64,000 bases of DNA from an uncultured Gemmatimonadota bacterium (GTDB lineage: Bacteria > JAAXHH01), in contig OX638340.1 of NCBI GenBank assembly GCA_951812955.1, positions 2,272,001 through 2,336,000 on the forward strand, read 5' to 3'. The notes under the pieces are model-generated. The model ran no database searches, was not told the DNA's origin, and saw nothing but the letters and a program-made list of their open reading frames with translations. Made by a program: the position numbers and the translations under genes. This document shows, one piece after another, positions 7,755 to 60,445 of this stretch. The stretch's first letter is position 1. Each line of letters opens with the position of its first letter.

Positions 7755-7888
7755 ATGGAAGTACGTACTCCGGACGTATCGATTCGGGTACCCATTACCC
7801 TTCTGGCGAAGGGCCAATTATGAAGAAAACGCGGAAGTCACTCCGCGTTTTCTGATGTGTCGATCGATATTCCGTAGATCAATTTGTG

Positions 7889-9370
7889 TTATTCTTCGGG
7901 GATCCGCAGGCCGATAAGAAACTGCGCATTGCCCCGCTGTATCCTGAATCGGATGGCCTGGCCGGGTTCGAATTCTCGGACGATGCCTAGGAATTCCTGT
8001 ACGCTGGACACCGACTCGCCGTTCACCTCGCGGATCAGGTCGCCCCGTTGCAGTCTCTTGTCCTCGGCCACGCTGCCCGCGCGAACCTGGGTGATCACCA
8101 CGCCCGAACCCGCCTCGTAGAAACGAGACCACTCCCGCGTCACATCCATGACGTCGATGCCGAGGTTGGTCGCGGGGCTCCTTCTGGGTTCGCTCGTCGA
8201 CGCGACGCGGGTCGGATCTCCATCGGGTAACTCGCCAAGTTCCAGCGCGATCGTCACCGGCGATCCTTCCCGTACGACCTCGATCTCAATTTCCGTCCCC
8301 GGAGCGATATCCGCGATCCGTTTCCGCAGGTCGTCCACGTCTTCCACGTCTTCCCCGTCGACCGCGACGATGACATCCTCCACCTGGAGATCGGAGTCGA
8401 TCGCCGGTCCGTCATCCACGATGTTGCTTATGAGCGCTCCCGCCTTGCTGTCCAGGCCCATGGATTCGGCCACGATCTCATCCAAATCTGCGATTTCCAC
8501 CCCCAGGTACCCGCGGCTCACGCGTCCGTCCTCGACCAGCCGGGTCATGATGTCCCGGGCCATGTTGGCCGGAACCGCGAAGCCGACGCCCTGGTACCCG
8601 CCGGTCCGGGTGGAAATGGCGGTGTTGATGCCCATGAGGTTCCCTTCCAGGTCGACCAGCGCGCCTCCGCTGTTCCCCGGATTGATGGCGGCGTCCGTCT
8701 GGATGAAGTTCTCGTAAGAGTTCGGTTCCAGTACGCGTCCCCGGCCCTTGGCGCTGACGATGCCCGCCGTGACGGTATGGTTCAGTCCGAAGGGATTGCC
8801 CACGGCCAGCACCCACTCGCCGACCCTCAACTTGTCCGAATCGCCAAAGGCCAACACGGGAAGATTATCGAAATCGATCTTGATGACGGCAAGATCTGTA
8901 CGGGGATCCAGTCCGACGATCTCCGCCTCCGTCTCCCGTTCGTCCGACAATTGAACGGTCAGTTTCTCCGCGTTTTCCACCACGTGGTTGTTCGTCACGA
9001 TGTAGCCGTCTTTCGACACGATCACCCCGGACCCCAGACCCTGGAACGGCCGCGGCCGTTGATTTCCCGGCGGTCCGCCGCCGAAAAACTCTTCGAAGGG
9101 ATTCCTGAACCGCTGCTGCGTCTGCGCGACCGCGCGTTTGCTCGTGATGAGTACAACGGAAGGCTTGACCCGCTCCGCGATGGTGGCGAAGGTCTCGCTG
9201 AATTCCTGCATCGACCGCTGGTCAGCGGCGACGACCGGTGTTATCGACCTGTTCTCGTCCTGTTCGACAATGGAGGCGTCCCAGTTGGAAATGAACAGGC
9301 CGCCGAGTACCATGCCCGTGATGAGCAGCGCCGCGCCGGCGAAGCCTCCTATATTCCTTTTCTCCGTCAT
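7889..9370 (-). CDS. htrA: HtrA/DegP-family periplasmic serine protease with two PDZ domains
   Basis: 493 aa. N-terminal TM anchor. Trypsin-like catalytic motifs (...TNNHVV..., ...DLAVIK..., ...GNSGGALV...) followed by two PDZ-like regions. Confidence 0.9.
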   Translation of the reverse strand: MTEKRNIGGFAGAALLITGMVLGGLFISNWDASIVEQDENRSITPVVAADQRSMQEFSETFATIAERVKPSVVLITSKRAVAQTQQRFRNPFEEFFGGGPPGNQRPRPFQGLGSGVIVSKDGYIVTNNHVVENAEKLTVQLSDERETEAEIVGLDPRTDLAVIKIDFDNLPVLAFGDSDKLRVGEWVLAVGNPFGLNHTVTAGIVSAKGRGRVLEPNSYENFIQTDAAINPGNSGGALVDLEGNLMGINTAISTRTGGYQGVGFAVPANMARDIMTRLVEDGRVSRGYLGVEIADLDEIVAESMGLDSKAGALISNIVDDGPAIDSDLQVEDVIVAVDGEDVEDVDDLRKRIADIAPGTEIEIEVVREGSPVTIALELGELPDGDPTRVASTSEPRRSPATNLGIDVMDVTREWSRFYEAGSGVVITQVRAGSVAEDKRLQRGDLIREVNGESVSSVQEFLGIVREFEPGQAIRFRIQRGNAQFLIGLRIPEE

Positions 9371-9542
9371 GCTCGATCTCCCTTTCTATGCTGTTTTTGC
9401 CCTGCCATTTACAACTATGCATAATACCGGGCACGCGTCCCGGCGTCAAACGATTACGGTCTATCTGCGACTGCCTCTTCCCCTTCCCATCCGGTTTCGC
9501 CAAGCGTCAGTCCGCCGGCCACACCCCGCGCTTCGAGCAATT

Positions 9543-9636
9543 CCTGCCTCAGTTCAGATTCGCGTCCCGGGTCGAAACGGTCACGCCGTCCTGCCTCAGT
9601 TCAGATTCGCGTCCCGGGTCGAAACGGTCACGCCGC
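9543..9636. repeat. exact 47-bp-period tandem duplication spanning the lon stop codon
   Basis: cctgcctcagttcagattcgcgtcccgggtcgaaacggtcacgccg occurs at 9543-9588 and again at 9590-9635. The upstream (coding-sense) copy encodes ...GGVTVSTRDANLN*. Confidence 0.9.
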
Positions 9637-12049
9637 CTTGCATGGACTCCACCCAGGTCCCGTCGCTTTCCGGGGTGTCGGCGGGTTCATCCATGAGCGC
9701 CAGTTCCAGGACCTGGTCGATATGGTCGACCAGGCAGAACCCGAGCTTCTCCTTAACGGCCGCGGGGACGTCGTCCAGGTCTTTCTCGTTCCGGCGGGGC
9801 AGGATGATGGTGGTGATACCGGCCCGCATCGCGCCGAGGACCTTCTCCTTGACGCCGCCGACCGGCATGACCTTCCCGCGCAGAGTGACCTCGCCGGTCA
9901 TGGCCAGATCGTTTCGTACCGGCCGGCCCGTGAGCAGGGAGGTCAGCACCGTCACGAGCGCCACGCCGGCGGACGGACCGTCCTTGGGGATAGCACCCAC
10001 GGGCAGATGGATATGTATGTCGTGCCGACCGAAGAACGCCGGGTCGATCTGCCATTCCTCGGCGTGCGACCTGACGTAGGTCATTGCGGCCCGGGCGGAT
10101 TCCTTCATCACGTCGCCCAGTTGGCCCGTAAGCGTCAGCCCCTTTCTGCCGGGCATCTTGCTGGCTTCGACAAACATGATCTCGCCGCCGGCCGGGGTCC
10201 AGGCCAGCCCGATCGCCACGCCGGGGTCTCCGGTGCGTTCCGCGGTCTCGGAGAAGTACTCGGGCGGACCCAGGTGCCGGTGCAGGTCACCTTCGGAAAT
10301 CTGGAAGGGTGGAGCCTGCCCTTCGGCGACCGAACGGGCCGATTTGCGGGCGACTGTGCGGATCTTCCGCTCCAGGTTGCGCAGGCCCGCCTCCCGGGTA
10401 TAATCGGAGATGATCCGGGCGATCGCCCGGTCGTCAAGACGCAGGTCATCCGTGGACAACCCGTGCGACTCCAGTTCCCTGGGAACGAGGTAGCGCCGCG
10501 CGATTTCGACCTTCTCCTCTTCCGTGTATCCCGACAGCTCGATGATCTCCATGCGGTCGCGCAGCGGCTCCGGTATGCCGGCCAGCATATTGGCAGTGGT
10601 CACGAACATGACGTTGGACAGGTCGAAGGGCAGATCGATGTAGTGATCGGTAAAGGTGTCGTTCTGTTCCGGGTCGAGCACTTCGAGCAGCGCGGAGGAG
10701 GGGTCTCCCCGGAAATCCCGGCCGAGCTTGTCGATCTCGTCCAGCATGAAGACCGGGTTGTTGGTGCCCGCCTTGCGGATGCTCTGGATGATGCGTCCCG
10801 GCAACGCGCCGATGTAGGTCCTGCGGTGTCCCCTGATCTCAGCCTCGTCATGCACACCGCCCAGCGATATGCGCACGAACCGTCGGCCCAGGGCGCGGGC
10901 GATCGACTTGCCGAGCGAGGTCTTGCCCACCCCCGGCGGACCCGCGAAACACAGGATGGAACCCTTCAGGTCCGGCTTCAGGCTCCGCACGGCCAGGTGT
11001 TCGAGGACGCGGTCCTTGATCTTCTCGAGGCCGTAGTGGTCTTCGTCCAGGATTTCCCGGGCCCGCTCGATGTCCAACTGATCATCCGATGAAACGGACC
11101 AGGGCAGCTCCGACAGCCACTCGAGATAGGTCCGCAGTGTCGAATACTCCGGAGAGACGGTCGGAATGCGCTCCAACCTTTTGAGTTCGCGCTCCGCTTC
11201 CGCCCGGGCCTCGCCAGGCAGGCCGGCTTCCTCGATCTTCTCGCGCAGGTCGGACAGGTCCTCGCCCTGTCCTTCGCCGTCTTCTCCGAGCTCCCGTTGT
11301 ATGGCCTTCATCTGCTCGCGGAGATAGTACTCGCGCTGTGCCTTGCCCATCTTGTCCTCGACCTGCGACTGGATGCGGCTGCCCGTCTCCGCCACTTCGA
11401 TCTCCCGGGTTATCAGGAATGTCAGCGCCTTCAGCCTTCCCTTGACATCGCTCAATTCCAGCATGGCCTGCTGGTCTTCGAGGGAAATCTTCAGATTGAA
11501 GGCGATGAAATCGGCCATTTTGGATGGCTGGTCCTCCAGGTTGAGCAGGGGGATGCGCAGCTCTTCGGACATGGTCGGGACCAGTTCGATCAGCCGCTGG
11601 AACTGCTCCGCCAGGTTGTGGGCCAGTGCCTTGCCTTCCATGGACTCATGTTTCTGCTCAGCCTGGAGTTCCACCCGGACGCGCATGATCGGCTCGGTTT
11701 CGAGCACGTCCAGTACACGTGCGCGGGCCACCCCGTGGACCACCGCGTGGAGGCTGTCTTCCGGCAGCTTCATCATCTTGTATATCCGAACCAGCGTACC
11801 GAATTTGTAGAGATCTTCGGGCGACGGCTGGTCCGTGTCCGGGTCCCGCTGCGCCAGGACCATGACCATCTTGTCCTGTTGTAGCGCCTCGTCCAGCGCC
11901 TTGACAGAACCCGTCCGGTCGGCTACCAGCGCGGCCGCCATATGGGGATACACGATCAGGTTGCGCACCGGCAGCACGGCGATGGACTCGATTACCGAGT
12001 TCTCCTGCAGGTTCAACGGTACTTCCTGGAGCGCCTTGATTTCAGCCAT
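9596..12049 (-). CDS. lon: ATP-dependent Lon protease
   Basis: 817 aa. LON N-domain, Walker A GPPGVGKTS, and C-terminal protease domain with ...KDGPSAGVAL... catalytic Ser. Confidence 0.95.
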   Translation of the reverse strand: MAEIKALQEVPLNLQENSVIESIAVLPVRNLIVYPHMAAALVADRTGSVKALDEALQQDKMVMVLAQRDPDTDQPSPEDLYKFGTLVRIYKMMKLPEDSLHAVVHGVARARVLDVLETEPIMRVRVELQAEQKHESMEGKALAHNLAEQFQRLIELVPTMSEELRIPLLNLEDQPSKMADFIAFNLKISLEDQQAMLELSDVKGRLKALTFLITREIEVAETGSRIQSQVEDKMGKAQREYYLREQMKAIQRELGEDGEGQGEDLSDLREKIEEAGLPGEARAEAERELKRLERIPTVSPEYSTLRTYLEWLSELPWSVSSDDQLDIERAREILDEDHYGLEKIKDRVLEHLAVRSLKPDLKGSILCFAGPPGVGKTSLGKSIARALGRRFVRISLGGVHDEAEIRGHRRTYIGALPGRIIQSIRKAGTNNPVFMLDEIDKLGRDFRGDPSSALLEVLDPEQNDTFTDHYIDLPFDLSNVMFVTTANMLAGIPEPLRDRMEIIELSGYTEEEKVEIARRYLVPRELESHGLSTDDLRLDDRAIARIISDYTREAGLRNLERKIRTVARKSARSVAEGQAPPFQISEGDLHRHLGPPEYFSETAERTGDPGVAIGLAWTPAGGEIMFVEASKMPGRKGLTLTGQLGDVMKESARAAMTYVRSHAEEWQIDPAFFGRHDIHIHLPVGAIPKDGPSAGVALVTVLTSLLTGRPVRNDLAMTGEVTLRGKVMPVGGVKEKVLGAMRAGITTIILPRRNEKDLDDVPAAVKEKLGFCLVDHIDQVLELALMDEPADTPESDGTWVESMQGGVTVSTRDANLN

Positions 12050-56911: not shown

Positions 56912-57757
56912 ATGCCCATCCTCCTCGCCATCGCCCTGCACGCGGAAGCGCGGCCTGTGATCGAGCGATTCCGATTGAAGCAGGACGCATCCTTCGACCT
57001 GCCCGTTTTCCGGCGGGACGAGGTCTGGCTTACCGTGACCGGTACGGGACGCATGAAGTCCGCCATCGCGACCACCTGCCTGGTCACCCGGATTGAAAGA
57101 GATGAGCGAACGGTCATCTTCAACCTCGGCGTCGCCGGCCATACGCAGAAGGCGGAGGAGGGACCCGTCAAGGTCGGGGACCGGTTCCTCGCGAACAAGA
57201 TCACGGAGCAAAGCACCGGCCGATCCTTCTATCCCGACCTGCTGGCGAGGACGCCCCTGGCGGAATCCGCGGTCACGACCGTGGAACGTCCCCTGGACCG
57301 GGCGGACGCCGGCGCCGTCGAGCCGGGCCTGGCCGACATGGAAGCGGCCGGATTCTTCCAGGCGGCGGCGACCTTCCTCCCGCCCCACCGGATCGGCTGC
57401 GTCAAGGTCGTTTCCGACCACCTGGAAACGAGACGCTTCGACAAGGACTGGATAAGTGAACTGATCGCGGGATCCCTGGACGATTTCGAGGCAGCGATCG
57501 CGGCTTACAGGACGATCTCCGACGGGGAACCGGACGCGTTGACCGACGCGGACGTGCGCGTCGTGGAAGACATCCGCGACCGGCTGCGACTGACGGCCAG
57601 CCGGCACCGGATGCTGTCCGACCTGGTGCGGTCTTACAAGCTACACACCGGCTCGGACCTGCCTGACCTCACACGGATCTCCCAGGTCTCCGTCAAGACG
57701 AAACAGGAAGGCGATGCAGAATTTGAAAGACTACGCGGCATCCTCTCGGTGGAATAA
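56912..57757 (+). CDS. PNP_UDP-type nucleosidase/phosphorylase-like protein (MTAN/MqnB/HpnG-like N-terminal domain) with extra ~90-aa C-terminal domain
   Basis: 281 aa. MPILLAIALHAEARPVIERF...VWLTVTGTGRMKSAIATTCL...FNLGVAGH...ADMEAAGFFQAA...VKVVSDH follows the nucleoside phosphorylase-I fold pattern. Called by eye only. Confidence 0.5.
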   Translation: MPILLAIALHAEARPVIERFRLKQDASFDLPVFRRDEVWLTVTGTGRMKSAIATTCLVTRIERDERTVIFNLGVAGHTQKAEEGPVKVGDRFLANKITEQSTGRSFYPDLLARTPLAESAVTTVERPLDRADAGAVEPGLADMEAAGFFQAAATFLPPHRIGCVKVVSDHLETRRFDKDWISELIAGSLDDFEAAIAAYRTISDGEPDALTDADVRVVEDIRDRLRLTASRHRMLSDLVRSYKLHTGSDLPDLTRISQVSVKTKQEGDAEFERLRGILSVE

Positions 57758-58754
57758 CTTCTCCCACCTCTATGTCGAGCGCGGCGCAGACGAATACTCG
57801 CTCACCCGGCGCATACGGGATCGTTTTTCGAAAGCCCGCGTGGTGGAGATCGACGACTACAAGGCGGTCTTCGCCCGGCCGCGTCAGCGGTTCCAGGCAC
57901 AAAAGGAGACCATGAAACTGATCCTGGCCGTGAAGAAGGACCGGTTCCTGTACGAAGGGTCGGGGAACAGCCAGAACTTCAACCTCGAGGATTTCTACTA
58001 CAACACGCTTATGTTCAATTGCGTGTACAACTGCGACTACTGCTACCTGCAGGGCATGTATCCATCGGCGAATATCGTGGTTTTCGTGAACCTGGAGGAC
58101 TACTTTAAGGCGACGCGCAGGGCCATACGCGAGAGGTCGAACCCCTCGCAGCCGTTTTACCTGTGTATCTCTTACGACACCGACCTGCTCGCTTTCGAGT
58201 CGGTCGTGCCCTATTGCCGCGCCTGGATAGAATTCGCCCGCGAGGAGCCGGACCTGCTCGTTGAAATCCGTACCAAGAGCGCCGCGTACCGCGCCATCGG
58301 GGACCTGTCGCCTTCAGAACGCGTCATCCTGGCGTGGACCCTGTCCCCCGAACCGGTCGCCGCACGCTTCGAACACGGGACGGCGCCGCTCAATCAGAGG
58401 CTGGACGCCGCCCGGTCGGCCATTGACGACGGCTGGCCGGTCCGTCTCTGCTTCGACCCGGTCCTCGCCGTTCCGTCCTGGGAGTCCGTTTACGGAGACC
58501 TGGTCGAGGAGGTCGTCCGGCGGATCGAGCCGGCCGCCGTTCGAGACGTGACCGTGGGCGTCTTCCGATTGTCGAAGATCCATTATCAGCGCATGAGACG
58601 TTTGCGGCGGGATACGCCGCTTCTGTACGACGAATACGTACAGGAGGGCACGACCGTGACCTACACGGCCGAACGGCGGGAGGAGATGACCGCCTTCATG
58701 CGGCAGCGCCTGGGAGACCACTTCGAAGAGGAGCGAATCGTCACATGGACGTAG
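57714..58754 (+). CDS. radical SAM enzyme of the spore-photoproduct-lyase (SplB-like) family
   Basis: 346 aa. N-terminal ...FSHLYVERGADEYSLTRRIRDRFSKARVVEIDDYKAVFARPRQRFQAQK...LILAVKK... resembles SPL-family N-termini. CxxxCxxC cluster CVYNCDYC. The start overlaps the upstream gene by 44 nt. Confidence 0.65.
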   Translation: MQNLKDYAASSRWNNFSHLYVERGADEYSLTRRIRDRFSKARVVEIDDYKAVFARPRQRFQAQKETMKLILAVKKDRFLYEGSGNSQNFNLEDFYYNTLMFNCVYNCDYCYLQGMYPSANIVVFVNLEDYFKATRRAIRERSNPSQPFYLCISYDTDLLAFESVVPYCRAWIEFAREEPDLLVEIRTKSAAYRAIGDLSPSERVILAWTLSPEPVAARFEHGTAPLNQRLDAARSAIDDGWPVRLCFDPVLAVPSWESVYGDLVEEVVRRIEPAAVRDVTVGVFRLSKIHYQRMRRLRRDTPLLYDEYVQEGTTVTYTAERREEMTAFMRQRLGDHFEEERIVTWT

Positions 58755-59464
58755 CACTGGTCACCGGCGCTTCATCCGGAATCGGCCTGGCCATCGCCGC
58801 GCGCCTGGTCGAGTCGGGCTACAACGTATACGGGTATGCCCGCGACCACGGGAAGACCTCCTACCGCCACGCCCGGTACAAACCCGTCGAATGTGACGTG
58901 ACCGATACCCGGGTGCTGCTGGATCGCACCGAGGATTTGCTCAAGGAAACCGGGGGACTGAAGGTCCTGGTCAACAACGCCGGTGTGGGGTTCTTCGGTC
59001 CCCATGCCACCATGGCGCCCGGGCGGATAGAAACCATGGTGCGGACCAACCTGATCGCGCCCATGGTCCTGACCCGGGCGACCCTGCGGCACCTGGAGGC
59101 CTCGCGGGGGTATGTCGTCAACATCGCTTCCACCGCCGCGTTGAATCCCGGTCCCTTCGGCGCGGCCTACGGCGCCACGAAGGCCGGCCTCCACCAGTTC
59201 GGCCAGGCGCTCTTCAGCGAGGTGCGGAAGAGCGGCGTCCGGGTGGTGACCCTGTACCCGGACATGACACGGACGCCGTTTTACGACGGGGCCGACTTCG
59301 AACCCGGCGAGGAACCCGGCACCCACATCACGCCCGAGTGCGTGGCCGACGCCGTTGCACAGGCCGTGGACCAGCGGGAGGGGACGGTGATCACGCAGAT
59401 CGTCATCAGGCCTCAGCGGACGCAAGTCGTCCGCAAGGGAAAGCCGCGGCGGGAGAAGGATTAA
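58745..59464 (+). CDS. short-chain dehydrogenase/reductase (SDR)
   Basis: 239 aa: MDVALVTGASSGIGLAIA..., ...NNAG..., ...YGATKAG.... Overlaps the radical SAM gene by 10 nt. Confidence 0.85.
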   Translation: MDVALVTGASSGIGLAIAARLVESGYNVYGYARDHGKTSYRHARYKPVECDVTDTRVLLDRTEDLLKETGGLKVLVNNAGVGFFGPHATMAPGRIETMVRTNLIAPMVLTRATLRHLEASRGYVVNIASTAALNPGPFGAAYGATKAGLHQFGQALFSEVRKSGVRVVTLYPDMTRTPFYDGADFEPGEEPGTHITPECVADAVAQAVDQREGTVITQIVIRPQRTQVVRKGKPRREKD

Positions 59465-59632
59465 GCGTCCGTCGGCTCAAGCAGCGGAATGGACTGCCCC
59501 GTGAAACCGCGCGAAACCATGCCAACGAATCCGCGCAAACGAGATTCCGCAAACGAACGAAATCCCCTGGCCCGGTGTTTTGGCACATGAATGAATTGCC
59601 CATCCGGTAGCTCATTTGCGAAAGGAACATTC

Positions 59633-60445
59633 ATGCCCTACATATCCTCCCTCCACGTCTATCCCATCAAGTCCTGCGCCGGACACGAGGTAAATCGGGC
59701 GGAGCTTGACGCCCGGGGGATCCTCTACGACCGGTCGTGGATCGTCGTCGGCAGTGGCGGCGGAATGCTCACCCAGCGCGACACGCCCGCCCTGGCGCTC
59801 GTTCGGCCTGCCGTGGAAAACGGCGGGCTGGTCCTTTCGGCACCGGGGATGGAGGACCTCGCGGTGCCGCGAACCGAGGAGGGCAATATACGGAACGTGG
59901 AAGTATGGGGAGATGCCTGCGACGGGATCGACCAGGGCGACGACGCGGCGGACTGGTTCAGCTCGTACCTAGACACTGCCAGCCGCCTGCTGTATTTCAA
60001 ACCGGGCTTCGTGCGTCCCGTAGACCCGGATTACGCGACCCGGCCAGGCGACCAGGTGGGCTTCGCGGACGGCTTTCCGCTGTTGATGATCTCCGAAGCC
60101 TCCCTGGCGGACCTGAATGCGCGGCTCGCATCGCCTGTCCGCATGAACCGCTTCAGACCCAATGTCGTCGTGGCAGACTGTCCGCCCTACGCGGAGGACA
60201 CGTGGAAGCACGTTCGCGCAGGGAACCTGGAACTCGACCTGGTAAAACCCTGCGGCCGGTGCGCCACGATCCTAGTGGAGCAGGAGAGCGGGACACCGGG
60301 CAAGGAACCGCTGCGCACGCTGGCGACCTACCGCAAACTCGGTCGGCCAACCCCGTCTTTCGGCCATAACGCCGTGCACCGGTCGCCCGGCGTGTTGGAA
60401 GCGGGCATGGCCATTCAGATTCTCGACATGCGGCAGAGCGCATAA
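59633..60445 (+). CDS. MOSC-domain protein (N-terminal beta-barrel + MOSC)
   Basis: Start at MPYISSLHVYPIKSCAG.... ...FADGFPLLMISEASL..., ...RFRPNVVV..., ...KPCGRCA.... Confidence 0.8.
   Translation: MPYISSLHVYPIKSCAGHEVNRAELDARGILYDRSWIVVGSGGGMLTQRDTPALALVRPAVENGGLVLSAPGMEDLAVPRTEEGNIRNVEVWGDACDGIDQGDDAADWFSSYLDTASRLLYFKPGFVRPVDPDYATRPGDQVGFADGFPLLMISEASLADLNARLASPVRMNRFRPNVVVADCPPYAEDTWKHVRAGNLELDLVKPCGRCATILVEQESGTPGKEPLRTLATYRKLGRPTPSFGHNAVHRSPGVLEAGMAIQILDMRQSA

What the first reader, a model, noticed from the sequence alone, without database searches (positions are those of the whole stretch)
56912..59464. Translationally coupled trio: nucleosidase-like protein + SPL-family radical SAM enzyme + SDR (MOSC gene follows)
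Three genes overlap: 57714-57757 by 44 nt, and 58745-58754 by 10 nt. A MOSC gene follows on the same strand. The first product looks like a PNP_UDP-fold nucleosidase (MTAN/MqnB/HpnG-like) with an extra ~90-aa C-terminal domain. The second has the SplB-like N-terminus and a CVYNCDYC cluster. Known pairings of a radical SAM enzyme with a PNP-fold nucleosidase are HpnH/HpnG (adenosylhopane formation, then adenine removal) and MqnE/MqnB (aminofutalosine/futalosine). In both, the radical SAM enzyme attaches the 5'-deoxyadenosyl moiety to a substrate and the nucleosidase trims the adenine. Alternatively, MTAN-type enzymes clear the inhibitory by-product 5'-deoxyadenosine. SPL-family proteins in non-spore-formers are functionally unassigned. 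This operon could therefore encode an undescribed adenosylation/trimming/reduction pathway, or a DNA-lesion repair enzyme with a dedicated 5'-dAdo scavenger.
Basis: partly seen in the sequence, partly recalled or inferred. Interest (0 to 1): 0.55.

Follow-up and report, generated by a model that had tools for sequence, protein, structure and literature searches.

The report
Nucleosidase paired with SPL-like radical enzyme
A radical-SAM enzyme shaped like the spore DNA-repair enzyme SPL, but with a rebuilt substrate pocket, is encoded almost always right after an overlapping adenine-releasing nucleosidase gene (often with a reductase) in at least eleven bacterial phyla; the system is undescribed and its chemistry is unknown.

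Summary
Three overlapping + strand genes encode an MTAN-fold nucleosidase with an extra C-terminal helical domain (56912-57757), an SPL-family radical SAM enzyme (57714 or 57723-58754) and a classical SDR (58745-59464).

The nucleosidase-rSAM pair is nearly obligate. Starting from the nucleosidase, the rSAM follows in 71 of 80 genome loci. Starting from the rSAM, the nucleosidase lies upstream in 74 of 75 metagenome loci. At least 11 phyla are represented. The overlap is ancient: 69 of 72 pairs overlap, mostly by 29-35 nt. They use a TTG start and a Shine-Dalgarno-like motif embedded in conserved nucleosidase codons.

MTAN catalytic residues are invariant in 181 family members. The rSAM keeps the SAM-binding residues of SPL. 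It lacks the H-donor Cys140, the thymine-binding Arg193 and Glu268, and the DNA-flipping hairpin tip, so it is not a spore photoproduct lyase.

The SDR is an accessory part (35-65% of loci). MOSC is lineage-local synteny.

Function remains inferred. My best guess (about 0.35) is an HpnH/HpnG-like sequence: adenosylation, adenine removal, reduction. Rivals are dedicated 5'-deoxyadenosine clearance and a nucleosidase-first pathway. I found no literature on this pairing.

The parts
56912..57757 (+). Nucleosidase ('nuc', 281 aa). It has an MTAN/futalosine-hydrolase-like PNP_UDP fold (residues ~1-200) plus a family-specific C-terminal helical domain.
   Evidence: Pfam PF01048 is sub-threshold at 19.5 vs 25.1 bits. 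NCBIfam futalosine hydrolase gives E = 8e-8, also sub-threshold. The family profile hits S. aureus MTAN 3bl6 at E = 9.5e-10. The AF2 model has pLDDT 90, and all top Foldseek PDB hits are MTAN or futalosine hydrolase (E = 1e-13, TM 0.66). E12, E144, K165 and D169 are 100% conserved and M143 99% in 181 full-length members.
57518..57754 (+). C-terminal domain of nuc (residues ~203-281; helices 212-225, 229-246, 264-278; motifs LRLTxxQ and KxEGxxxFExLR).
   Evidence: A profile of this domain was searched against 1.84 billion representative proteins. It matched 374 clusters, nearly all 265-290 aa long with the domain at the C-terminus. No other architecture was seen except one nuc-rSAM fusion. There is no Pfam match.
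57705..57725 (+). Translation-initiation signals for the rSAM, embedded in the nuc coding sequence: SD-like AGGAAGG (57705-57711, from the K-Q-E-G codons), ATG 57714, and the conserved TTG 57723 (inside the TTTGA of the Phe-Glu codons).
   Evidence: Sequence read. A TTG within TTTGA at -29 to -35 occurs in 54 of 72 pairs, mostly with a purine-rich motif upstream.
57714..58754 (+). SPL-family radical SAM enzyme (346 aa from the ATG; 343 aa from the conserved TTG at 57723). The cluster motif is C103-x3-C107-x2-C110.
   Evidence: PF20903 scores 77.2 bits against a cut-off of 27. TIGR04070 scores 85 vs 400 and TIGR03886 62 vs 437. The AF2 model has pLDDT 92.8 and matches SPL 4fhf at E = 2e-22, TM 0.81-0.83 over the whole length.
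58745..59464 (+). Classical short-chain dehydrogenase/reductase (239 aa; TGASSGIG, NNAG, S...YxxxK), probably NADP(H)-dependent. It is an accessory third gene of the module.
   Evidence: PF00106 E = 8e-42. No specific NCBIfam equivalog is reached. The nearest solved structures are uncharacterised SDRs and clavaldehyde dehydrogenase. It is adjacent in 46 of 71 pairs (nuc-side sample) and 26 of 74 (rSAM-side sample). The L. noguchii triad has an orthologue at 37% identity.
59591..60445 (+). MOSC protein. It is a neighbour, not part of the conserved module.
   Evidence: MOSC_N and MOSC domains. It is present only in loci L001-L020, the close Gemmatimonadota-type relatives, and in none of the more distant loci.

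Best explanation
Shown: a conserved two-enzyme core with an optional third enzyme.
- The SPL-fold radical SAM enzyme binds SAM as SPL does, but it has a remodelled and probably larger substrate pocket.
- It is made in fixed proportion with an MTAN-type N-ribosyl hydrolase, because the rSAM start codon and ribosome-binding site lie inside the last ~35 nt of the nucleosidase gene.

Inferred mechanism:
1. The 5'-deoxyadenosyl radical from SAM adds to an sp2 carbon of a common cellular substrate. This gives a 5'-C-adenosylated intermediate, as HpnH does with diploptene and MqnE with its enolpyruvyl substrate.
2. The partner nucleosidase hydrolyses off adenine, leaving a ribosyl (C5 sugar) appendage.
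3. Where the SDR is present, it reduces or oxidises the freed anomeric or open-chain carbonyl.
4. The C-terminal domain of the nucleosidase docks it to the rSAM or to the non-adenosyl part of the intermediate.
For: The pairing is near-obligate from both sides: 71 of 80 loci and 74 of 75. Three further rSAM look-ups out of three also show it. It spans at least 11 phyla. In Leptospira noguchii the full triad is present.

The overlap is deeply conserved, with embedded SD and TTG signals. Sequence divergence of the two genes is correlated (Spearman 0.84; 0.59 among distant loci). One natural nuc-CTD-rSAM fusion exists.

The nucleosidase chemistry is under strict selection. The equivalents of MTAN Glu12, Met173-Glu174, Arg193 (here Lys) and Asp197 are invariant or nearly so in 181 members. 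The N-terminal half scores better against futalosine hydrolase (E = 8e-8) than against MTAN (E = 9e-4). The loop that lines the 5'-substituent pocket in MTAN is 7 residues shorter here.

The rSAM keeps the SAM ligands: K174->K188, S195->T209, R273->R285, and Y96/Y98. It loses the SP-specific residues and gains invariant C246 and D248 beside the SAM site; C246 could donate an H atom to a product radical.

A tightly coupled SDR in 35-65% of loci points to small-molecule or sugar chemistry.

From established knowledge, the only characterised rSAM/PNP-fold-nucleosidase partnerships, HpnH/HpnG and MqnE/MqnB-MTAN, are both adenosylation followed by base removal. PMC13459092 describes the HpnH/HpnG case, including adenosylhopane accumulation in hpnG knockouts.
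Against: No product, substrate or activity is known. Adenosylation has never been shown for an SPL-fold enzyme.

No substrate-supplying genes are conserved nearby. The neighbours are lineage-specific housekeeping genes.

The SDR is missing from a third to two thirds of loci, depending on the sample.

The one fusion protein (P0306) has lost the nucleosidase catalytic residues (ME->SD, SD->TN). That suggests a structural rather than catalytic need for the domain in at least one case, although it is a singleton metagenomic sequence.

Leptospiraceae also carry a solo paralogue of the nucleosidase, so the fold can work without an adjacent rSAM.

The conserved Tyr pair (CxYCY) recalls SPL's H-atom relay, which suits H-abstraction chemistry.
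Confidence: 0.35

Rival explanations
1. Dedicated by-product clearance. The rSAM performs H-atom-abstraction chemistry on its own substrate, using SAM as co-substrate. The bound nucleosidase hydrolyses the inhibitory 5'-deoxyadenosine to adenine and 5-deoxyribose at the source. The SDR either belongs to the rSAM's substrate chemistry or disposes of 5-deoxyribose.
For: The MTAN catalytic set is intact. By established knowledge, MTANs accept 5'-dAdo and relieve product inhibition of rSAM enzymes such as BioB. The family-specific C-terminal domain and the translational coupling fit a docked helper subunit. The catalytically degenerate fusion P0306 is tolerable if catalysis is only auxiliary. The H-donor Cys140 of SPL is absent, so SAM is less likely to be regenerated.
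Against: No other rSAM family is known to need a private nucleosidase. It is hard to see why one helper would stay obligatorily coupled across at least 11 phyla while its catalytic residues stay invariant in 181 members. By general knowledge, many of these host lineages encode many rSAM enzymes and a housekeeping MTAN or MTA phosphorylase; this was not checked here. The shortened 5'-pocket loop and the better score to futalosine hydrolase do not point to a minimal 5'-methyl substrate.
Confidence: 0.25
2. Nucleosidase-first pathway. The nucleosidase releases a 5-substituted ribose from an adenosine derivative (for example S-ribosylhomocysteine from SAH, methylthioribose from MTA, or 5-deoxyribose from 5'-dAdo). 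The SPL-like rSAM then transforms that sugar, and the SDR finishes the product. This would be a salvage or detoxification route that follows the gene order nuc-rSAM-SDR.
For: Gene order matches the proposed reaction order in almost every locus. The housekeeping neighbourhoods and broad but sporadic distribution suit a salvage function. The SPL pocket naturally holds (deoxy)ribose-bearing ligands, and the phosphate/ribose-contacting Arg273 equivalent (R285) is invariant. A solo nucleosidase paralogue in Leptospiraceae suggests a generic adenosine-derivative substrate.
Against: There is no precedent for radical SAM chemistry on these sugars. Gene order is weak evidence. The catalytically degenerate fusion would break such a pathway. 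Phyletic anticorrelation with luxS, ahcY or mtnK could not be tested with these tools.
Confidence: 0.2
3. DNA (or RNA) lesion repair like SPL. The rSAM reverses a nucleic-acid lesion other than the spore photoproduct, and the nucleosidase and SDR are auxiliaries.
For: The whole-length fold is that of SPL (TM 0.81-0.83). The Tyr96/Tyr98 and Arg273 equivalents are kept. Other SplB-like clades sit in SOS or repair operons (PMC3765255). DNA polymerase I follows the rSAM in six loci, all in the Thermosediminibacter/Tepidanaerobacter-type group.
Against: Thymine-binding Arg193 and Glu268 are replaced by Ala and an invariant Gly. Cys140 is absent. The hairpin is 3 residues shorter with an acidic tip instead of Arg304/Tyr305, and Lys309 is lost. 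Firmicute-type LexA boxes occur upstream in 1 of 80 loci, against 1.6 expected by chance. An SDR and an adenosine nucleosidase are not known repair partners. The window protein has pI 6.2.
Confidence: 0.1

Closest known systems
Spore photoproduct lyase SplB (Geobacillus thermodenitrificans, PDB 4FHC/4FHD; TIGR04070)
   Same: Same Pfam family (PF20903). Same whole-length architecture: N-terminal alpha/beta domain, partial TIM barrel and C-terminal hairpin region (TM 0.81-0.83). Same CxxxCxYCYLQ cluster motif with both tyrosines. The SAM-binding Lys174, Ser195 (here Thr) and Arg273 equivalents are kept.
   Different: Only 21-22% identity, and far below the equivalog cut-off (85 vs 400 bits). Cys140, Arg193, Glu268, Arg304/Tyr305 and Lys309 are not conserved. 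It has its own invariant residues (C246, D248, W241, W256, Y260, and the N-terminal R55/Q58/Q63/K64). It is always partnered with a nucleosidase, whereas splB is partnered with splA in Bacillus (own knowledge). It occurs mostly in non-spore-formers.
HpnH/HpnG (adenosylhopane synthase plus adenosylhopane nucleosidase) in hopanoid side-chain synthesis
   Same: A radical SAM enzyme is encoded next to a PNP_UDP-fold nucleosidase. A reduction step would follow base removal, and here the SDR could supply it. By own knowledge, the nucleosidase gene precedes the rSAM gene in many hpn clusters.
   Different: The rSAM here has the SPL fold, not the HpnH type. No squalene-hopene cyclase or other hpn genes are in the window or the loci. 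The nucleosidase has MTAN-like hydrolase residues and an extra C-terminal domain. The hosts include anaerobic thermophilic Firmicutes and Leptospira; whether they make hopanoids was not checked.
MqnE/MqnB (aminofutalosine synthase plus futalosine hydrolase or MTAN) of the futalosine menaquinone pathway
   Same: An adenosylating rSAM is followed by an MTAN-fold hydrolase. The best NCBIfam hit for the nucleosidase is futalosine hydrolase TIGR03664 (E = 8e-8), and H. pylori MTAN/futalosine hydrolase structures top the fold search.
   Different: The score is far below the equivalog cut-off (32 vs 125 bits). The rSAM model matches MqnE only weakly (E = 2.5e-4, TM ~0.4). No mqnA/C/D genes are nearby.
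MTA/SAH nucleosidase (MtnN/Pfs)
   Same: Same fold and same catalytic residues: Glu12, Met173-Glu174, Ser196-Asp197, with Arg193 replaced by an invariant Lys.
   Different: 13-20% identity. The loop corresponding to MTAN residues 105-113 is 7 residues shorter, with an invariant Pro-Asp. A C-terminal helical domain of about 75-80 aa has been added. It is genetically coupled to an rSAM.

Membership tests
Spore photoproduct lyase sensu stricto (SplB, TIGR04070) | Radical SAM CxxxCxxC cluster motif and membership of Pfam PF20903 | tested here: met
   C103/C107/C110 are invariant. PF20903 scores 77.2 bits against a cut-off of 27.
Spore photoproduct lyase sensu stricto (SplB, TIGR04070) | Score at or above the NCBIfam equivalog cut-off | tested here: not met
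   TIGR04070 scores 85.1 vs 400. TIGR03886 (SPL-family, non-spore-formers) scores 62.5 vs 437.55.
Spore photoproduct lyase sensu stricto (SplB, TIGR04070) | Whole-length SPL fold | tested here: met
   Foldseek against 4fhf/4fhc gives E = 2e-22, TM 0.81-0.83 over 344 aligned columns.
Spore photoproduct lyase sensu stricto (SplB, TIGR04070) | H-atom donor Cys140 (B. subtilis Cys141) | tested here: not met
   The profile alignment puts I152 at this position. The neighbouring C151 is variable in the family.
Spore photoproduct lyase sensu stricto (SplB, TIGR04070) | Dihydrothymine-binding Arg193 and Glu268 | tested here: not met
   They align to A207 (nearly invariant) and G282 (invariant). Residue roles are taken from PMC3467042.
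Spore photoproduct lyase sensu stricto (SplB, TIGR04070) | DNA-flipping beta-hairpin tip Arg304/Tyr305 and phosphate-binding Lys309 | tested here: not met
   The hairpin is 3 residues shorter, its consensus tip is acidic, and Lys309 aligns to Val.
Spore photoproduct lyase sensu stricto (SplB, TIGR04070) | Tyr96/Tyr98 radical-relay pair and the SAM ligands Lys174, Ser195 and Arg273 | tested here: met
   The equivalents are Y109, Y111, K188, T209 and R285. All are invariant or nearly so.
Spore photoproduct lyase sensu stricto (SplB, TIGR04070) | Repairs 5-thyminyl-5,6-dihydrothymine in DNA | not testable with these tools
   Requires an enzyme assay.
MTAN / PNP_UDP_1 nucleosidases | PNP_UDP alpha/beta fold | tested here: met
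   The AF2 model has pLDDT 90. All top-50 PDB hits are MTAN or futalosine hydrolase, probability 1.0.
MTAN / PNP_UDP_1 nucleosidases | Catalytic Glu12, Met173-Glu174, Arg193 and Asp197 (E. coli numbering) | tested here: met
   E12, M143-E144, K165 (Lys in place of Arg) and S168-D169. E12, E144, K165 and D169 are present in 181 of 181 members.
MTAN / PNP_UDP_1 nucleosidases | Curated model cut-offs (PF01048; NCBIfam MTAN or futalosine hydrolase equivalogs) | tested here: not met
   PF01048 scores 19.5 vs 25.1. TIGR03664 scores 32.2 vs 124.7. PRK05584 scores 18.9 vs 169. Some homologues do pass PF01048.
MTAN / PNP_UDP_1 nucleosidases | Hydrolysis of MTA, SAH or 5'-dAdo | not testable with these tools
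   Requires an enzyme assay.
Adenosylating rSAM plus nucleosidase systems (HpnH/HpnG, MqnE/MqnB) | rSAM gene conserved next to a PNP-fold nucleosidase gene | tested here: met
   71 of 80 loci and 74 of 75 loci.
Adenosylating rSAM plus nucleosidase systems (HpnH/HpnG, MqnE/MqnB) | rSAM homologous to HpnH or MqnE | tested here: not met
   The best fold match is SPL. MqnE matches only at E = 2.5e-4 with TM 0.38-0.46. No HpnH or MqnE NCBIfam hit.
Adenosylating rSAM plus nucleosidase systems (HpnH/HpnG, MqnE/MqnB) | Pathway context (shc/hpn or mqnA/C/D genes) | tested here: not met
   No recurrent neighbours beyond the SDR. The flanks carry housekeeping genes.
Adenosylating rSAM plus nucleosidase systems (HpnH/HpnG, MqnE/MqnB) | Formation of a 5'-C-adenosylated intermediate | not testable with these tools
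   Requires biochemistry or metabolomics.
Classical SDR | TGxxxGxG, NNAG and the Ser-Tyr-Lys triad | tested here: met
   VTGASSGIG, VNNAG and S...YGATK are read in the translation. PF00106 E = 8e-42.

The most novel reading that the evidence does not exclude
This is a third, independently evolved adenosylating radical SAM system, built on the SPL fold. It works as an obligate complex with its own nucleosidase to graft a ribose-derived C5 unit onto a common cellular molecule, whether metabolite, lipid or nucleic acid. That would reveal an unrecognised modification or metabolite present in at least 11 phyla, including pathogenic Leptospira, Clostridium and Thermoanaerobacter.
Probability: 0.3. 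Interest if true: 0.85.

Novelty: new variant of a known kind. Interest (0 to 1): 0.62.

Why it matters
SPL-family radical SAM proteins outside spore-formers are a large group with no assigned function. This clade alone has more than 2,200 clusters at 90% identity, and public databases call them only 'DNA photolyase' or 'SPL family radical SAM protein'.

A near-obligate, translationally coupled, catalytically intact nucleosidase partner gives this clade a concrete, testable biochemical handle. The rSAM product, or a by-product handled in complex, carries an adenine N-glycosidic bond.

If the enzyme adenosylates, the known repertoire of that reaction type would grow, and a new ribosyl-derived metabolite or modification would be defined. 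If the nucleosidase is a private 5'-dAdo scavenger, it would be the first rSAM with a dedicated product-clearance subunit.

The module occurs in cultivable organisms: Leptospira spp., Clostridium tyrobutyricum, Thermoanaerobacter, Caldicoprobacter and Tepidibacillus. Experiments are therefore feasible.

Tried and rejected
- Anti-phage defence: no PADLOC hit for any of five proteins.
- SOS regulation: a Firmicute-type LexA box lies upstream of nuc in 1 of 80 loci, at the chance level.
- Riboswitch control: an Rfam scan of 11 Firmicute loci found only an unrelated cobalamin riboswitch 2.5 kb upstream in L056 and a THF riboswitch far downstream in L062.
- Further conserved partners: all-vs-all clustering of ORFs from 61 diverse loci found only nuc, rSAM and SDR recurring across lineages. 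The other recurrent genes are each confined to one lineage: a PHP-like gene, DUF4380, a cyclase, MgtE, IleRS, PolA, CoaE and an HD-GYP protein.
- MOSC, ceramidase-like, amidohydrolase and M48 genes as parts of the system: rejected. They occur only in close relatives.
- Promoter and terminator scan of 53.8-62.2 kb: uninformative.
- 'Leptospiraceae have the nucleosidase without the rSAM': rejected. Leptospira carries the full triad elsewhere, and the gpsA-linked gene is a second paralogue.
- 'Six rSAM loci lack nuc': five of them have nuc 550-700 nt upstream, separated from the rSAM.
- Literature searches found nothing on this pairing.


Full report
**Observation**

The window has a G+C content of about 0.6. 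It carries a run of co-directional + strand ORFs. A fourth follows at 59591-60445.

With the first ATG as start, the overlaps are 44 nt and 10 nt, as stated. Pfam and NCBIfam give the following:
- The first protein has a sub-threshold PNP_UDP_1 match (19.5 vs 25.1 bits) and a sub-threshold futalosine-hydrolase match (E = 8e-8).
- The second is a solid PF20903 'SPL' member (77 vs 27 bits). It falls far below both SPL equivalog models (85 vs 400; 62 vs 437).
- The third is a classical SDR (PF00106, E = 8e-42).
- The fourth is a MOSC_N + MOSC protein.

**The nucleosidase**

An alignment of 18 homologues, and later of 41, shows invariant E12, M143-E144, K165 and D169. A profile of this alignment matches solved MTA/SAH nucleosidases (3bl6, E = 9.5e-10). 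In that match the invariant residues fall on the MTAN catalytic positions Glu12, Met173-Glu174, Arg193 and Asp197.

The AlphaFold2 model has a mean pLDDT of 90. Its 50 best PDB matches are all MTANs or futalosine hydrolases (E down to 1e-13). The MTAN-like core ends with a long helix (residues 178-200). Three to four further helices follow (212-225, 229-246, 264-278) and form an extra domain of about 75-80 residues.

In 181 full-length family members from two searches, E12, E144, K165 and D169 are present in every one, and M143 in 180. The protein is therefore almost certainly an active adenine-nucleoside N-ribosyl hydrolase.

A profile of the C-terminal domain alone was searched against 1.84 billion representative proteins. 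It found 374 clusters. Nearly all were 265-290 aa proteins with the domain at the C-terminus, so the domain is specific to this family. The one different architecture is P0306, a 580-aa protein ordered nuc, C-terminal domain, SPL domain. Its nucleosidase catalytic motifs are degenerate. It is a singleton from one metagenome.

**The radical SAM enzyme**

The AF2 model (pLDDT 92.8) superimposes on Geobacillus SPL over its whole length (TM 0.81-0.83, 21-22% identity). The next best hits (PFL-AE, MqnE, SuiB) are far weaker.

I mapped the residues described for SPL in PMC3467042 through a profile alignment.

Residues that are conserved:
- the cluster cysteines;
- Tyr96 and Tyr98 (CDYCYLQ);
- the SAM ligands Lys174 (K188) and Ser195 (T209);
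- Arg273 (R285).

Residues that are not conserved:
- The H-atom donor Cys140 aligns to I152, and the neighbouring C151 is variable.
- The dihydrothymine-binding Arg193 and Glu268 align to A207 and an invariant G282.
- The hairpin is three residues shorter, without the Arg304/Tyr305 tip.
- Lys309 is lost.

The clade has its own invariant residues, including C246 and D248 on the strand that contacts SAM in SPL (the A234 position), and a conserved N-terminal motif (Y49, F53, R55, Q58, Q63, K64). The enzyme is thus an SPL-fold protein with a rebuilt substrate pocket. It is not a spore photoproduct lyase.

**Conservation of the gene pairing**

A scan of one genome per GTDB species with the nucleosidase alignment found 293 loci, of which 80 were retrieved. 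In 71 of them the rSAM lies immediately downstream. The loci come from:
- Gemmatimonadota, Latescibacterota and Zixibacteria;
- Planctomycetota, Bacteroidota and Balneolales;
- Verrucomicrobiota and Lentisphaerales;
- Clostridia and Bacilli, including Clostridium tyrobutyricum, Thermoanaerobacter, Caldicoprobacter, Tepidibacillus and Vulcanibacillus;
- Dictyoglomota and Myxococcota.

The test from the other side agrees. Three of three looked-up rSAM homologues have a ~270-aa gene directly upstream; one of them is from Vulcanimicrobiota. In a metagenome scan with the rSAM alignment, 75 loci had enough upstream sequence to judge. In 69 the nucleosidase is adjacent. In five more it lies 550-700 nt upstream. 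In four of those five, a SUFU-like gene sits between the two. Only one locus lacks it within 3 kb.

The apparent exception was a set of seven Leptospiraceae/Spirochaetota loci with the nucleosidase but no rSAM. These turned out to hold a second, solo paralogue next to gpsA. Leptospira species do encode the rSAM. In L. noguchii the rSAM sits in the canonical triad, with an overlapping 291-aa nucleosidase paralogue upstream and an SDR downstream.

Divergence of the two proteins is correlated across loci (Spearman 0.84).

**The overlap**

In 69 of 72 pairs the rSAM start lies inside the nucleosidase gene. In 54 of 72 there is a TTG at -29 to -35 from the nucleosidase stop. It is formed by the TTTGA of the conserved Phe-Glu/Asp codons of the nucleosidase C-terminal helix (FExLR). 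It is usually preceded by a GGAGG- or AGGAAGG-like motif, which is formed by the conserved K-x-E-G codons.

In the window these elements are AGGAAGG at 57705-57711 and TTG at 57723. The ATG at 57714 lies only 2 nt after the SD-like motif and is found only in close relatives. The likely product is therefore 343 aa, the length at which most homologues are called.

The rSAM residues encoded within the overlap are poorly conserved, and residues 1-9 have low model confidence (pLDDT below 50). The overlap is therefore shaped mainly by the nucleosidase frame and the initiation signals. I infer that such an old, conserved coupling means production in fixed proportion, and probably a physical complex.

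**Accessory and non-member genes**

The SDR follows the rSAM, overlapping it by 10, 4 or 16 nt or separated by a short gap. This holds in 46 of 71 pairs in the genome sample and in 26 of 74 in the metagenome sample, across many phyla. It is a real but dispensable third component.

MOSC, the ceramidase-like gene, the amidohydrolase, the 211-aa membrane-anchored protein and the M48 protease co-occur only in relatives whose nucleosidase is at least 54% identical. That is lineage synteny.

Clustering of all ORFs in 61 diverse loci found no other gene recurring across lineages. The neighbours are housekeeping genes such as TyrRS, IleRS, PolA, CoaE, GpsA, RecA, MiaB-like and Suf genes. No LexA boxes, riboswitches or defence-system signatures accompany the module.

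**Interpretation**

These points are shown:
- a nucleosidase-rSAM core that is tightly coupled and widely conserved;
- an intact hydrolase active site;
- an SPL fold with SAM-binding residues but a non-SP pocket;
- an optional SDR.

The chemistry is not shown. I weigh four readings.

1. Adenosylation, adenine removal and reduction, about 0.35. This is by analogy with HpnH/HpnG and MqnE/MqnB, the only characterised rSAM/PNP-fold-nucleosidase partnerships. PMC13459092 describes HpnH/HpnG and notes that hpnG mutants accumulate adenosylhopane. This reading explains the obligate pairing, the invariant catalytic residues, the somewhat better match to futalosine hydrolase, the shortened 5'-pocket loop, and an SDR acting on a freed sugar carbonyl.

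2. A private 5'-deoxyadenosine-clearing subunit, about 0.25. This fits a docking domain and the catalytically degenerate fusion. It explains poorly why only this rSAM family would need one across at least 11 phyla.

3. A nucleosidase-first salvage route, with the rSAM acting on the released 5-substituted ribose, about 0.2. This matches the gene order and the housekeeping context but has no precedent.

4. SPL-like nucleic-acid repair, about 0.1. This is disfavoured by the lost lesion- and DNA-binding residues, the metabolic-type partners and the lack of SOS signals. However, other SplB-like clades do sit in repair operons (PMC3765255).

**Novelty**

I found no paper describing this pairing. Source databases name the proteins only 'hypothetical protein', 'DNA photolyase' or 'SPL family radical SAM protein'. 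Both proteins belong to known superfamilies, and the logic resembles known rSAM/nucleosidase systems. I therefore rate it a new variant of a known kind: an uncharacterised, widespread system with clear experimental entry points.

Noticed in passing
L071:4997-8859 (also L045, L048, L060, L068, L074, L080): Leptospiraceae carry a second, solo paralogue of the nucleosidase. It keeps the C-terminal domain and catalytic residues and lies directly after gpsA. It is convergent with a MutY-like HhH-GPD glycosylase and QueG. The canonical nuc-rSAM-SDR triad sits elsewhere in Leptospira (L165:3154-5787).
   Followed up: partly
P0306 (580 aa, JGI metagenome contig of 7281 nt): A natural fusion ordered nuc, C-terminal domain, SPL-like rSAM. 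The nucleosidase catalytic motifs are degenerate (DME->SES/D, SD->TN) while the rSAM motifs are intact. It is a singleton cluster, so it could be a real variant or an artefact.
   Followed up: partly
L158:2308-2964 (same in L132, L161, L164): In low-G+C metagenome loci, two of them labelled human gut, a 218-aa SUFU-family gene (PF05076, E = 1e-30) is inserted between the nucleosidase and the rSAM. It breaks the usual overlap but keeps the order nuc-X-rSAM-SDR.
   Followed up: partly
window:54110-61911: Eight co-directional, closely spaced genes: M48 metalloprotease, PRK09237-type amidohydrolase/deacetylase, a 211-aa protein with an N-terminal membrane anchor and no family match, the triad, MOSC, and a distant neutral-ceramidase-like protein. 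The array is conserved only among the close Gemmatimonadota-type relatives (L001-L020). No terminator-like site was found within it on the + strand beyond chance.
   Followed up: partly
window:58745-59464 versus L165:5035-5787: The module's SDRs share a distinctive C-terminal motif, PD(M/I)TxTxFYDGxDFE, beyond the generic SDR signatures. It might mark a substrate-specific subfamily.
   Followed up: no
L056:3297-3472 and L062:11792-11893: A cobalamin riboswitch (122.6 bits) lies 2.5 kb upstream of the module in Thermovorax subterraneus. A THF riboswitch (80 bits) lies about 4 kb downstream in a Clostridiaceae MAG. Neither is positioned to control the module.
   Followed up: no
window:27030-32125: Two adjacent large TPR-repeat proteins (880 and 806 aa) lie on the minus strand. 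The rest of the window looks like ordinary chromosome: Lon protease, HtrA-type protease, a ROK-domain protein, a MacB/FtsX permease, a beta-lactamase-fold protein and a GH106-like protein.
   Followed up: no
L053, L055-L057, L059, L061 (about 7860-10970): In the Thermosediminibacter/Tepidanaerobacter/Fervidicola group, DNA polymerase I (polA) directly follows the rSAM, then coaE and an SLT transglycosylase. This is probably lineage synteny, but it is the only DNA-metabolism neighbour seen.
   Followed up: no
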